From Escherichia phage RCS47, in sequence record NC_042128.1: DNA of 64,000 bases; one strand, given 5' to 3'. Positions 40,253 through 43,200 of the stretch are shown here, piece after piece (position 1 is the stretch's first letter; each line of letters starts with the position of its first letter). The notes beneath the pieces were generated by a model that worked only from the letters and a program-made list of their open reading frames with translations, searched no databases and was not told where the DNA came from. The position numbers were made by a program, and so were the translations under genes.

Positions 40253-43200
40253 AAGAGCTGTGCTATGGATCTGTTTGCAGTGGAATTGAAGCCGCGAGTA
40301 TTGCCTGGGAACCGTTGGGTATGCGTCCGGCGTGGTTTGCTGAAATCGAGCCTTTTCCATCTGCCGTTCTTGCGCTCCGCTGGCCCCATGTCGCCAACCT
40401 TGGCGACATGACAAAACTTGCCAAAAAAGTCTTGGCTGGGGAAATCGAATCCCCTGACGTGCTCGTCGGGGGAACACCATGTTTTACCGCGGGGCATATG
40501 GTTCTTTGTAAAAATGGTTATAAACCAATAGAAGATGTTTGCCCTGGCGATTACGTAGTCAGTCATCTCGGGCGGTTACAACAAGTAAAAAGAGTTGGTT
40601 CAAAAATAGCTAATACGGGGTTACTTAATGCCGTTGGGCAGCCTTTAGGTATAAGAACAACCAATGACCATCCCTTCCTGGCTGTTCGGTGGAAAGCCCA
40701 AAACACCCGGAAAAATGGCACATATTTTAAGAGAGAGTTGTTGTCTGAACCGGAATGGCGAGCAGCATGTGATATGCCGGGATATCAATGGTGCGCTCTA
40801 ACTAATTTCAATATTGCATCTCCAGATATTTGTTCTCGGTTCTTGTCTGAAGAACAGGCTATGTATCTTGCGGGCGCTTATGTAGGCGATGGATATATTA
40901 GGAGATGGAGAGGTAAATCTAAGAAGGCGGTTGTTTTTGGCATAAATTGCCAGAAATTGAGAAAGTTTCATTGCCACATACCAGAAAACATGTTTTCCGT
41001 GGCAAGCGAAATCCGAGGGAGCATCAAAGTAACCTTGAATGATACGTGTTATGCCAATTGGCTTAATGAACATTTTGGCGAGTTAAGCCATGCTAAACGT
41101 ATCCCTGCATGGGTGATGTCGCATCCATTGCGTCATGTGTTTTTACAAGGCTATCTTGATACTGATGGGACACCAAGTGGTAAAGCGGGATTTAGAATTA
41201 ATAGTGTTAGTCCTGCGCTTGCTTGGGGCGTTGCGGGGTTGTCACAGACTTGTGGTTATGTTTCTTCGGTCAGCTTTATTGAAGTTGAGCCCAAAAAAGT
41301 GATCGAGGATCGCGTGGTAAATCAACGGGATTATTATCAGGTAACAATCTGCCCGCAGAAATTGTCACGTAAATCAAGATTGGCTCATGGAATGCTTTTA
41401 CGAACAGTCAAAGAGTTTAAATCGGTAGGCCTAGATACTGTATACAACATAGAAGTCGAAGGTGATCATTCCTATATCCTCAATGGTGCGGTGGTCCATA
41501 ACTGTCAGGCATTCAGTATCGCGGGATTACGTGGTGGGCTTGATGATGAGCGTGGCGCGCTAACTTTAAAGTATGTGGAGCTTGCAAATGCAATTGACGA
41601 CAAACGGGCTGAGTCATTTCTCAAACCGACAGTTATCGTCTGGGAAAATGTCCCAGGAGTCCTGTCATCGGCAGATAACGCCTTCGGATGTTTCCTTGCC
41701 GGATTGGCTGGAGAAGATGCGCCATTTGAACCAGGTGATCGACCTGAATCAGGAAAAAGTAACGCGTTCTGGCGGTGGGATGGCAAAACCGGTTGCCATG
41801 CTCCAAAGTGGCCGCAGTGTGGTTGTATTTATGGACCGCAGCGAAAGGTGGCCTGGAGAATCCTTGATGCCCAATACTTCGGAGTGGCACAACGACGCCG
41901 ACGCGTGTTTGTTGTCGCAAGTGCTCGAACAGACCTCGATCCCGCAACGGTACTTTTTGAGTTCAAAGGCGTGCGCCGGAATATTGCGCCGAGCCGAAAA
42001 AAGAAGGAAATCGCTTCCGCCATTATTGCAAATGGCGCTGCAATCAGTGGCGAAAGCCTAAATCCATGCCTACACGCTGACATGCCACCCGGTATGAAAT
42101 CGACGAAAGCCGTAAACGCTTTCAGGATGGCAGCATTTGGGGAATATATTGACGATGAAACCGCATCGACAGTAAAGGCAAGAGATTTTAAAGATGCCAC
42201 TGACCTTGCCGTTTTTAGCAGCACAGGAGCAGGTTTTTGGTCAGAAGGGCATGGTACATTGCGGGCACGTGAGCAAGAAAGCCATGAGCATCTTGTTACA
42301 TTGGCTTTTCCTGAGCGTATGAGCGGTACACAACATGCTGCAACTAAGAATACTTCACCATCTCTAATGGCTAAAAATCCAACAGCTGTTTGCTATGAAG
42401 TAAGAAACGCAGAAGTAGCTGTCCGCCGTCTTACCCCTGTCGAATGTGAAAGGCTGCAAGGTTTTCCTGATGGGCATACGTTGATCCCGACGGAAAAGCG
42501 TAAAAAAGTTAATTCAGATGAACTGGCATATCTTCGCAATCACTATCCAGATTTAAGCGAAGAAGAGGCCGCGATGCTTGCAGCTGACGGACCGCGTTAC
42601 AAAGCGATCGGCAATAGTATGGCAATACCAGTAATGCGCTGGATTGGCGATCGGATTACTAAGTCCGTATGTCGGCAGAAAGAAGGAAGTGAAACAAAAG
42701 AGCGAAAAGTTAAACCAGCGGCAGAATTCGAACGGTCCATATTCAAATGGGCTGGTGGAAAATTTGGTGTTCTGGAACAAATCTTTCGCTATTTGCCAGA
42801 AGGGAAGCGCCTGATTGAACCTTTCGTTGGTGGCGGAGCTGTCTTCATGAATGCCGGATACCAGGAAAATCTGCTAAATGATGTGAATGCTGACCTGATT
42901 AACTTTTACAAGACTCTGCAACGCGAGGCGCATTCACTTATCACTCTGGCACATCGTTTCTTCCAGGACTACAACACACAGGAAGGATACCTGGCAGTAC
43001 GGAATGCGTTTAACAAACAAGTCTATGATGATTTACATCGCGCAGCGGCGTTTTTGTTCCTGAACCGACATTGTTTTAACGGATTGACGCGTTACAACCA
43101 GGCCGGTGAGTTCAATGTCGGTTATGGGAAGTATAAAACTCCGTATTTCCCATTACAGGAGATGGAAGCCTTCCTCGGTGCGGAAGGGCGGTCTGAGTTT

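What the first reader, a model, noticed from the sequence alone, without database searches (positions are those of the whole stretch)
40480..41502. Intein with LAGLIDADG homing endonuclease inserted exactly at the catalytic Pro-Cys of a Dmt-like C5/N6 DNA methyltransferase
The 1095-aa methyltransferase ORF contains a 341-codon insert with all intein hallmarks: Cys1 (CFTAGHMV...), a TxxH block (TNDHPF), two LAGLIDADG motifs, terminal HN, and Cys at +1. Removing it joins GGTP to CQAFSIAG, recreating the canonical C5-MTase motif IV (GGxPCQxFSxAG), so the enzyme should be inactive until protein splicing occurs. The remaining extein is 754 aa, which matches the size I recall for uninterrupted P1 Dmt, and carries a complete Dam-like domain (FVGGGAV, DPPY). 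This is a mobile selfish element inside a phage methylation gene and makes cytosine methylation splicing-dependent.
Basis: partly seen in the sequence, partly recalled or inferred. Interest (0 to 1): 0.8.

Follow-up and report, generated by a model that had tools for sequence, protein, structure and literature searches.

The report
Homing intein splitting P1-family Dmt methyltransferase
The DNA methyltransferase gene of this P1-like phage-plasmid is interrupted, exactly at the catalytic cysteine of its cytosine-methylase half, by a self-splicing protein element that carries its own DNA-cutting enzyme; the element is real and common in E. coli P1-like plasmids but unannotated, and it belongs to a kind of element already known.

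Summary
ORF 40249-43536 (+) encodes 1095 aa. Residues 78-418 (nt 40480-41502) are exactly what the 754-aa Dmt of reference P1 lacks, and removing them restores motif IV, GGTP|CQAFSIAG.

The insert has Cys1, TxxH, two LAGLIDADG motifs, terminal His-Asn and Cys+1. Its AlphaFold model (pLDDT 93) best matches PI-SceI and other intein endonucleases (E 1e-16).

It is present in 152 of 5426 complete E. coli genomes, about 31% of P1-type dmt alleles. It also occurs in E. albertii, E. fergusonii, Salmonella and Shigella plasmids, in phage vB_EcoM-Ro157c2YLVW and in a sequenced laboratory P1vir stock. It is almost never annotated as an intein.

The intein differs by at most 1.5% between alleles whose N-exteins differ by up to 9.5%. 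Invaded and empty alleles are interleaved. A synonymous base next to the insertion (CCA versus CCT) is perfectly linked to its presence. This points to recent horizontal spread.

It belongs to a large intein lineage: at least 193 clusters, about 90% inserted at the Pro|Cys of C5 methylases.

Splicing and endonuclease activity are inferred, not shown. Inteins in phage methylases, including C-5 ones, are already reported, so this is a new member of a known kind. Interest is moderate.

The parts
38982..39027 (+). C1-repressor operator Odmt (38982-38998) and promoter Pdmt (38998-39027) of the uhr-hrdC-dmt operon
   Evidence: The sequence is identical to the features annotated in P1 AF234172, located in the window by exact match. 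That expression is limited to times when C1 is inactive is inferred from the P1 annotation.
40249..43536 (+). dmt precursor ORF: 1095 aa, 121.7 kDa, C5 methylase plus intein plus Dam-type N6 methylase
   Evidence: It is 99% identical to the Dmt of phage vB_EcoM-Ro157c2YLVW.
40249..40479 (+). N-extein (aa 1-77): C5-methylase motif I and the first half of motif IV (VGGTP, 40465-40479). The Pro(-1) codon is CCA.
   Evidence: CCA is perfectly linked to intein presence.
40480..41502 (+). Intein: 341 aa, 38.3 kDa, class-1 type, with a nested LAGLIDADG endonuclease
   Evidence: GC is 0.43, against 0.55 for the N-extein and 0.48 for the C-extein.
40480..40671 (+). N-terminal splicing region, including Cys1 (40480-40482) and block B TNDH (40660-40671)
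   Evidence: C1, T61 and H64 are invariant in alignment A2; in the wider alignment A3, C1 and H64 are invariant and T61 is nearly so. Pfam Hint_2 matches residues 1-49.
40864..40896 (+). LAGLIDADG motif 1 ([11 protein letters not shown]; acidic residue D137)
41140..41172 (+). LAGLIDADG motif 2 ([11 protein letters not shown]; acidic residue D229)
41440..41502 (+). C-terminal splicing blocks F ([14 protein letters not shown]) and G (NGAVVHN), ending in His340-Asn341
   Evidence: (TIGR01443). There is no polymorphism in codons 296-341 among 12 distinct alleles.
41503..42729 (+). C-extein, C5-methylase part. It starts with Cys+1 (41503-41505), which is the catalytic Cys of motif IV (CQAFSIAG). 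It also carries motifs VI, VIII, IX and X and the variable target-recognition region.
42730..43536 (+). C-extein, Dam-type (D12 class) N6-adenine methylase domain with FVGGGAV and DPPY, plus the stop codon
   Evidence: (TIGR00571 248.8 bits against a cut-off of 114.85).

Best explanation
Residues 78-418 of the 1095-aa Dmt precursor are a canonical class-1 intein with a nested double-motif LAGLIDADG homing endonuclease. It sits between Pro77 and the catalytic Cys of C5-methylase motif IV.

Inferred splicing mechanism:
1. Cys78 makes the N-S acyl shift.
2. Cys419 (+1, the methylase's own catalytic nucleophile) attacks the thioester.
3. Asn418 cyclises and releases the 38-kDa intein.
4. An S-N shift leaves an 83-kDa Dmt with [12 protein letters not shown] restored.

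Only the cytosine-methylase half should depend on splicing. The C-terminal Dam-type domain is a separate unit.

The freed intein endonuclease is expected to cut uninterrupted dmt alleles around ...GGAACACCT|TGTCAGGCATTC. Repair from an invaded copy would then copy in the intein together with a few flanking bases.

Because dmt lies in the C1-repressed uhr-hrdC-dmt operon, precursor and endonuclease should appear during lytic growth. That is when P1-type genomes replicate and can meet.

Shown here: the anatomy, the fold, the presence/absence polymorphism and the population signature of recent horizontal spread. Inferred: splicing, cleavage and timing.
For: Anatomy and fold:
- The gap against 754-aa P1 Dmt is exact, and motif IV is restored on removal.
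- After in-silico splicing the Pfam DNA_methylase score rises from 105.2 to 125.6 bits, with one stretch running through motif IV.
- Hint_2, LAGLIDADG_3 and intein_Cterm match above their cut-offs.
- The AF2 model has pLDDT 93.1 and pTM 0.89.
- Best structural matches are PI-SceI (E 1e-16), the TliVMA and PhoVMA inteins, PI-PfuI and PI-PkoII, followed by free LAGLIDADG enzymes and mini-inteins.

Conserved residues:
- C1, T61, H64, G138, K206, G230 and N341 are invariant across the 15-row alignment A2, whose homologues are 24-52% identical. D137, D229 and Cys+1 are at least 90% conserved.
- In the wider alignment A3, C1, H64 and N341 are invariant, and T61, K206, D229, G230 and Cys+1 are at least 90% conserved.
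- All 15 sampled P1-family copies are intact ORFs. Splicing regions show 7 synonymous against 3 non-synonymous polymorphic codons, and the last 46 codons show none.

Mobility:
- The intein is in 152 of 5426 E. coli genomes, while 339 have an uninterrupted junction.
- Mean intein divergence is 0.8% (max 1.5%). The adjacent 231 nt of N-extein diverges 5.5% on average (max 9.5%).
- Near-identical exteins occur with and without the intein: window versus L013 differs at 4/231, 2/480 and 3/801 positions.
- Linkage of the Pro(-1) third base is perfect. I+/CCA 146 genomes, I+/CCT 0, I-/CCA 0, I-/CCT 122 in one sequence context plus 216 in another.
- An intein-proximal tract of synonymous changes appears on several different upstream backgrounds.
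- GC is 0.43 in the intein against 0.48-0.55 in the exteins.

Family:
- 193 representative clusters match at E <= 1e-30.
- Of 138 full-length matches, 124 have Pro at -1 and 119 have CQ at +1/+2.
- 48 of 53 sampled hosts are PF00145.

Operon: the Odmt operator and Pdmt promoter are identical to P1.
Against: - No experiment shows splicing or DNA cleavage.
- Pro at -1 blocks or slows N-terminal cleavage in commonly used model inteins (my own knowledge, not checked here). However, 90% of this family has it.
- The endonuclease region shows 15 non-synonymous against 10 synonymous polymorphic codons, a hint of relaxed constraint. The contrast with the splicing regions is not significant (Fisher p = 0.15).
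- Sequence-only matches to Hint models are weak: Hint_2 is 0.1 bit above its cut-off and Intein_splicing is below its cut-off.
- The mosaic flanks could also arise from ordinary recombination among P1-like plasmids.
- C5 activity of P1 Dmt is itself annotated only as 'perhaps'.
Confidence: 0.82

Rival explanations
1. The intein is genuine and splices, but its endonuclease is no longer active or is rarely used. The element then spreads among P1-like plasmids by ordinary homologous recombination and by hitch-hiking on successful plasmids.
For: The endonuclease region carries 15 non-synonymous against 10 synonymous polymorphic codons. N-exteins of invaded alleles are mosaics with breakpoints at many distances. 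P1-like plasmids recombine extensively, as the shuffled target-recognition regions show.
Against: Both LAGLIDADG acidic residues and K206 are intact in all 15 copies. No endonuclease-deleted mini-intein was found among 133 plasmid records, even in the sensitive search mode. A very young element (at most 1.5% divergence) present in five enterobacterial species and on exteins up to 9.5% apart is most simply explained by active homing.
Confidence: 0.3
2. The insert is a splicing-dead relic. It permanently disables the cytosine-methylase half and is tolerated because only the Dam-type half matters to the phage.
For: dmt is dispensable in dam+ hosts (CRISPRi data, PMC10695390). C5 activity of P1 Dmt is uncertain in the reference annotation. 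Pro at -1 is unfavourable in model inteins (own knowledge).
Against: Every splicing residue is conserved in 15 of 15 copies. Among 138 relatives, all have Cys1, 126 end in HN and 135 have Cys at +1. Splicing regions show mostly synonymous change, and the C-terminal 46 codons are invariant. All C5 motifs of the exteins are intact, and the C5 core has dN/dS of 0.09-0.23 among invaded alleles.
Confidence: 0.07
3. The 341 aa are a fixed, non-excisable accessory domain of this methylase family, or a bacterial intein-like (BIL) or toxin-type Hint domain, rather than an intein.
For: Weak Pfam matches of a few relatives to PT-HINT and Vint.
Against: 339 of 492 E. coli genomes have the gene without the insert and with a seamless motif IV. 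The insert has Cys+1, terminal His-Asn and a nested endonuclease, and its best fold matches are true intein endonucleases. These features do not fit BIL or toxin Hint domains.
Confidence: 0.01

Closest known systems
PI-SceI (yeast VMA1 intein) and the archaeal VMA, PI-PfuI and PI-PkoII intein endonucleases
   Same: The architecture is the same: a Hint splicing domain split by a double-motif LAGLIDADG endonuclease, with Cys1, TxxH, His-Asn and Cys+1. These are the best structural matches (E 1e-16 to 1e-8).
   Different: Sequence identity is only 11-16%. This intein is smaller (341 aa against 454-537). The host protein and insertion site are unrelated. No biochemical data exist for this one.
Inteins of actinobacteriophage DNA methylases (N-6/N-4 types DNMT-1/2, PMC5050341; the Dorothy_75 family, PMC9957025; C-5 type listed in bioRxiv 10.1101/2025.01.02.630785)
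   Same: These are LAGLIDADG-bearing inteins in orphan phage methylases. They show patchy presence, far less intein divergence than extein divergence, and evidence of transfer between diverged host genes.
   Different: Those are in phages of Actinobacteria. The relatives found here in actinobacterial genomes are only 28-36% identical. No paper in the searchable library mentions an intein in P1, P1-like plasmids or Dmt. The library does not cover subscription journals, so prior mention cannot be excluded.
Reference bacteriophage P1 Dmt (AF234172 / NC_005856, 754 aa)
   Same: It is the same gene in the same operon. Exteins are 99% identical, with the same long target-recognition region and Dam domain.
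   Different: The reference has no intein. It has CCT instead of CCA at Pro77 and an unusual W74 in motif IV.
The wider, mostly unannotated lineage of inteins at the Pro|Cys of C5-methylase motif IV in public (meta)genomes
   Same: The insertion site and architecture are the same. There are 193 representative clusters at E <= 1e-30, about 90% with Pro at -1 and CQ at +1/+2. The nearest outside the P1 family (57% identical) also sits in a C5+Dam fusion.
   Different: The P1-family copy forms a tight clade (at least 98.5% identity). Nothing between 57% and 98.5% identity was found, so its donor is unknown.

Membership tests
Class-1 intein (Hint splicing domain) | Nucleophile (Cys/Ser) at intein position 1 | tested here: met
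   Cys78 of the precursor. It is invariant in alignments A2 and A3 and in 138 of 138 relatives.
Class-1 intein (Hint splicing domain) | Block B TxxH | tested here: met
   TNDH at intein 61-64. T61 and H64 are invariant in A2; in the wider A3, H64 is invariant and T61 is at least 90% conserved.
Class-1 intein (Hint splicing domain) | C-terminal (His-)Asn followed by a Cys/Ser/Thr +1 extein residue | tested here: met
   The sequence is ...VVHN|C. NCBIfam TIGR01443 scores 25.9 bits against a cut-off of 15.6. 126 of 138 relatives end in HN and 135 of 138 have Cys at +1.
Class-1 intein (Hint splicing domain) | Hint fold | tested here: met
   The AF2 model has pLDDT 93.1. Foldseek hits are intein endonucleases at E 1e-16 to 1e-8, and also mini-inteins (Prp8, GyrA, DnaE, gp41-1). 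The sequence-only Pfam Hint_2 match is borderline (28.5 against 28.4).
Class-1 intein (Hint splicing domain) | Homologues lacking the insert exist, and removal restores a conserved host motif in frame | tested here: met
Class-1 intein (Hint splicing domain) | Autocatalytic protein splicing | not testable with these tools
   This needs expression plus Western blot or mass spectrometry. Expected products are 83.4 and 38.3 kDa from a 121.7-kDa precursor.
LAGLIDADG homing endonuclease (single-chain, two-motif) | Two LAGLIDADG motifs, each with the catalytic acidic residue | tested here: met
   YLAGAYVGD137G and FLQGYLDTD229G. D137 and D229 are at least 90% conserved and G138 and G230 are invariant in A2. 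Pfam LAGLIDADG_3 scores 34.5 against 22.5.
LAGLIDADG homing endonuclease (single-chain, two-motif) | LAGLIDADG fold | tested here: met
   Foldseek hits to I-SceI, I-DmoI and I-OnuI-type enzymes, in addition to intein endonucleases.
LAGLIDADG homing endonuclease (single-chain, two-motif) | Site-specific cleavage of the intein-less allele and homing | not testable with these tools
   Only population signatures are available.
C5 cytosine DNA methyltransferase (extein, N-terminal two-thirds) | Motifs I, IV (PC), VI (ENV), VIII (QxRxR), IX and X in order | tested here: met
   All were located. After in-silico splicing, Pfam PF00145 scores 125.6 bits. Motif IV is split by the intein in the precursor.
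Dam / D12-class N6-adenine DNA methyltransferase (extein, C-terminal third) | FxGxG and DPPY motifs and a family model above its cut-off | tested here: met
   PF02086 scores 191.9 bits and TIGR00571 scores 248.8 against 114.85. The motifs are at 42823-42843 and 43261-43272.
Bacterial intein-like (BIL) or pretoxin Hint domains | A Hint domain without a nested endonuclease, in a variable rather than conserved host position, usually without the canonical C-terminal Asn plus nucleophile pair | tested here: not met
   The endonuclease is present, the insertion is in the most conserved motif of the host, and HN|C is present. The BIL structure 2lwy is only a weak match.

The most novel reading that the evidence does not exclude
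The intein may be more than a passenger. Its endonuclease would be made only when C1 repression is lifted. It could then act as a weapon between competing P1-type phage-plasmids by cutting the dmt gene of intein-less rivals in the same cell, as in marker exclusion by T4 homing endonucleases.

In addition, the Cys1/Cys+1 pair at the methylase active site could make cytosine methylation of progeny DNA conditional on splicing, for example redox- or timing-dependent.

The common empty-site variant ACGCCT (216 genomes) would then be a resistant target, and ACACCT (122 genomes) the susceptible one.
Probability: 0.15. Interest if true: 0.7.

Novelty: new member of a known kind. Interest (0 to 1): 0.5.

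Why it matters
P1 is the classic transducing phage of E. coli genetics, and P1-like phage-plasmids are common carriers of resistance genes. About a third of their dmt genes, and at least one sequenced laboratory P1vir stock (OP279344), carry an unannotated intein with an apparently intact homing endonuclease.

This offers a natural intein system in the most tractable bacterial genetic background. Invaded and empty alleles differ by almost nothing else, so homing, co-conversion, target-site resistance and splicing at an unfavourable Pro(-1) junction could all be measured directly.

There are also practical consequences:
- The gene is mis-described in hundreds of records as a plain 'Dam family methyltransferase', or split into pseudogenes.
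- The methylation phenotype of P1-like elements may depend on splicing.
- A new LAGLIDADG specificity, targeting the conserved PCQ-coding DNA of C5 methylases, is available for characterisation.

Tried and rejected
- **Literature.** All ten allowed full-text searches combining intein with Dmt, P1, P1-like, punavirus, phage-plasmid, cytosine methyltransferase, DNA methylase or the phage name found no report of this intein. They found only actinophage methylase inteins. The P1 genome paper (PMC523184) is not held. Two further calls failed on term length.
- **Sequence search of solved structures.** This gave only marginal hits: the Spl DnaX mini-intein at E 0.0014 and PI-PkoII at E 0.016. The fold search was needed.
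- **Decayed copies.** I looked for endonuclease-deleted mini-inteins or other decayed copies in plasmids using the sensitive mode. None were found. The seven partial matches are truncations or record ends.
- **A second insert type.** dmt alleles of other lengths (2589 and 2424 nt) might have held a different intein. They do not: the extra length is in the target-recognition region.
- **Footprints of precise intein loss.** I searched for an empty site with CCA. There were none in 5426 genomes, but only in the sequence context of the one probe used.
- **Relaxed selection on the endonuclease.** The contrast with the splicing regions shows a trend only (Fisher p = 0.15).
- **Conserved accessory domain or BIL domain.** Both were considered and rejected.
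Full report
**What is in the sequence.** The window carries one ORF at 40249-43536 on the + strand, starting with GTG and encoding 1095 aa. Translation puts CFTAGHMV at residue 78 and VVHN|CQAFSIAG at residues 415-426. Removing it leaves 754 aa with the junction VGGTP|CQAFSIAG. Both Cys codons are TGT, so at DNA level the insertion point is ambiguous by three bases.

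**Comparison with uninterrupted homologues.** A search of phage records found three kinds of match:
- The whole gene at 99.1% identity in phage vB_EcoM-Ro157c2YLVW.
- 87% coverage in 'Escherichia phage P1 isolate del res del mod' (OP279344).
- Two-piece matches covering 69% or less in reference P1 and P7.

In a protein alignment, the 754-aa Dmt of reference P1 (AF234172) is 99% identical to the exteins and is gapped over exactly the 341 residues. OP279344 has the same intein together with a different, shorter target-recognition region.

**Is it an intein?**
- Pfam finds LAGLIDADG_3 (34.5 bits, cut-off 22.5) and Hint_2 (28.5, cut-off 28.4) in the insert. Intein_splicing is below its cut-off.
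- NCBIfam finds the intein C-terminal splicing region (25.9, cut-off 15.6), plus weak matches to the intein parts of several intein-containing proteins.
- The canonical blocks are all present: Cys1, TNDH at 61-64, [11 protein letters not shown] at 129-139, [11 protein letters not shown] at 221-231, [14 protein letters not shown] at 321-334, and NGAVVHN at 335-341 followed by Cys.
- Across 14 homologues that are 24-52% identical, C1, T61, H64, G138, K206, G230 and N341 are invariant. D137, D229 and Cys+1 are at least 90% conserved.
- An AlphaFold2 model built on that alignment is confident (pLDDT 93.1, pTM 0.89).
- Its best matches among solved structures are PI-SceI (E 1e-16), the TliVMA and PhoVMA inteins, PI-PfuI and PI-PkoII. 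Free LAGLIDADG enzymes and mini-inteins follow.
- Sequence-only comparison with solved structures was marginal.

I conclude that the insert has the sequence, fold and context of a class-1 intein with a nested two-motif LAGLIDADG endonuclease. Splicing and cleavage themselves are inferred.

**The host protein.**
- After in-silico splicing, the C5-methylase model score rises from 105.2 to 125.6 bits. The N-terminal match becomes one stretch running through motif IV.
- Motifs I, IV, VI, VIII, IX and X are all present.
- The C-terminal 265 aa are a Dam-type domain: TIGR00571 scores 248.8 bits against 114.85, with FVGGGAV and DPPY.
- The +1 residue of the intein is the residue that acts as catalytic nucleophile in C5 methylases (established knowledge of motif IV). 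The cytosine-methylase half therefore cannot be assembled before splicing.
- The Dam-type half lies entirely in the C-extein and may not need splicing. Both points are inference.
- The C1 operator Odmt and promoter Pdmt annotated in P1 are identical in the window at 38982-39027. The precursor should therefore be made only when C1 repression is lifted.

**Distribution.**
- The intein DNA occurs at 98.5% identity or more in 133 plasmid records. These come from E. coli, E. albertii, E. fergusonii, Salmonella and Shigella, and nearly all are non-mobilizable P1-like plasmids.
- It occurs in 152 of 5426 complete E. coli genomes.
- A 300-nt probe across the empty junction finds the gene in 492 genomes, 339 of them uninterrupted. 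About 31% of alleles are therefore invaded.
- The records call the whole ORF 'Dam family site-specific DNA-(adenine-N6)-methyltransferase'. In one frameshifted copy, PGAP splits it into three pseudogenes, one named 'LAGLIDADG family homing endonuclease'.
- OP279344 is the genome of a laboratory P1vir stock used in Argonaute studies (bioRxiv 10.1101/2022.09.09.507302).

**Evidence for recent horizontal spread.**
- In 15 sampled invaded alleles (12 distinct intein sequences), every copy is an intact ORF.
- Mean pairwise divergence is 0.8% (max 1.5%) in the intein. It is 5.5% (max 9.5%) in the adjacent 231 nt of N-extein, and up to about 7-9% in the Dam region.
- Invaded and empty alleles are interleaved. 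The window and the empty allele L013 differ at only 4/231, 2/480 and 3/801 positions of the exteins.
- The intein occurs with both the long and the short target-recognition regions.
- All invaded alleles have CCA for Pro(-1) and all empty alleles have CCT.
- Allele-specific 45-nt probes confirm this across 5426 genomes. Invaded/CCA 146; invaded/CCT 0; empty/CCA 0; empty/CCT 122 in one context and 216 in a second.
- A short intein-proximal tract of synonymous changes (G..G..A..G.....A) appears on several different upstream backgrounds. This is what co-conversion during homing would leave.
- GC content is 0.43 in the intein against 0.55 and 0.48 in the exteins (profile).

These patterns fit endonuclease-driven homing. 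They do not exclude spread by ordinary recombination among P1-like plasmids.

**Selection.**
- Pairwise dN/dS in the intein is 0.14-0.43, based on very few changes.
- Splicing regions show 7 synonymous against 3 non-synonymous polymorphic codons, with none in the last 46 codons. The endonuclease region shows 10 against 15. The contrast is not significant (Fisher p = 0.15).
- No polymorphism touches a catalytic residue.
- The C5 core of invaded alleles has dN/dS of 0.09-0.23.

**The wider family.**
- An exhaustive HMMER search of 1.84 billion representative proteins found 193 clusters at E <= 1e-30.
- Among the 138 of the best 150 that align over the full intein, all start with Cys and 126 end in HN. 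124 have Pro at -1 and 119 have CQ at +1/+2, giving the pattern [GS][TSP]P|CQxFSxAG.
- Of 53 sampled hosts, 48 match PF00145 and all match Hint_2.
- The nearest relative outside the P1 family (57% identical) also sits in a C5+Dam fusion whose exteins are 48% identical.
- Copies in Mannheimia and Rodentibacter look truncated.

The P1 element is therefore one young clade of an old, widespread intein lineage tied to the Pro|Cys of C5 methylases. Pro at -1 is regarded as unfavourable in model inteins (my own knowledge). Its prevalence here suggests that this lineage is adapted to it.

**Literature.**
- Inteins in mycobacteriophage N-6/N-4 methylases are described in PMC5050341.
- An actinophage methylase family with an intein that moves between diverged hosts is described in PMC9957025.
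- A 2025 survey lists C-5 methylases among previously reported intein hosts (bioRxiv 10.1101/2025.01.02.630785).
- None of the ten full-text searches found an intein reported in P1, P1-like plasmids or Dmt. Subscription journals are not covered, so I cannot exclude a prior mention.

**Verdict.** The element is a new member of a known kind. It is noteworthy for its host (the P1 family, including a laboratory P1vir stock), its frequency and its experimental tractability, not for a new principle. Interest 0.5.

Noticed in passing
window 41911-42423 (between C5 motifs VIII and IX); loci L002, L004, L005, L010: The target-recognition region of the cytosine-methylase half is modular. Spliced Dmt lengths of 672, 754, 807 and 862 aa occur in P1-like alleles. 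The longest appears to combine modules of two other types, reminiscent of multispecific phage methylases.
   Followed up: partly
L003 (P1 reference AF234172) codon 74 of dmt; equivalent window position 40468-40470: Reference P1 has Trp (TGG) where every other sampled allele has Gly in motif IV (VWGTPC against VGGTPC). At most 7 of 216 E. coli genomes with that flanking haplotype can share it. This may be a laboratory mutation affecting the C5 activity of the reference strain.
   Followed up: partly
L002 (OP279344.1, laboratory P1vir stock) 3001-6042: This P1vir genome carries the intein and the short, P7-like target-recognition region. Its dmt therefore differs from the P1 reference in two modules.
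   Followed up: partly
L023 (NZ_CP012497.1) 2371-5656: In a frameshifted copy, the annotation pipeline splits the gene into three pseudogenes: 'DNA adenine methylase', 'LAGLIDADG family homing endonuclease' and 'Dam family...'. Intact copies elsewhere are named only as Dam-family methyltransferase.
   Followed up: yes
empty dmt junctions in E. coli genomes (equivalent to window 40458-40479 | 41503-41524): Two empty-site variants exist...GGAACACCT|TGT (122 genomes) and ...GGTACGCCT|TGT (216 genomes). Invaded alleles always have ACACCA. The commoner ACGCCT variant could be a poorer target for the endonuclease.
   Followed up: partly
proteins P0012 (Mannheimia haemolytica) and P0026 (Rodentibacter pneumotropicus): Related inteins (48% and 64% identical over the aligned parts) occur in Pasteurellaceae C5-methylase genes that look truncated. 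P0012 loses the C-extein after CQS. P0026 starts inside the intein. These may be decayed copies.
   Followed up: no
window 44210-44363 and 46364-46439; L001 6961-7207: The window has tRNA-Asn, tRNA-Thr and a CAT-anticodon tRNA downstream of dmt, as in P1. Phage vB_EcoM-Ro157c2YLVW has an extra tRNA-Tyr between Asn and Thr.
   Followed up: no
E. coli chromosomes (e.g. NZ_CP015229.1 1844818-1845840): Five of the 153 intein copies in complete E. coli genomes lie on records labelled chromosome, which suggests integrated P1-like elements.
   Followed up: no
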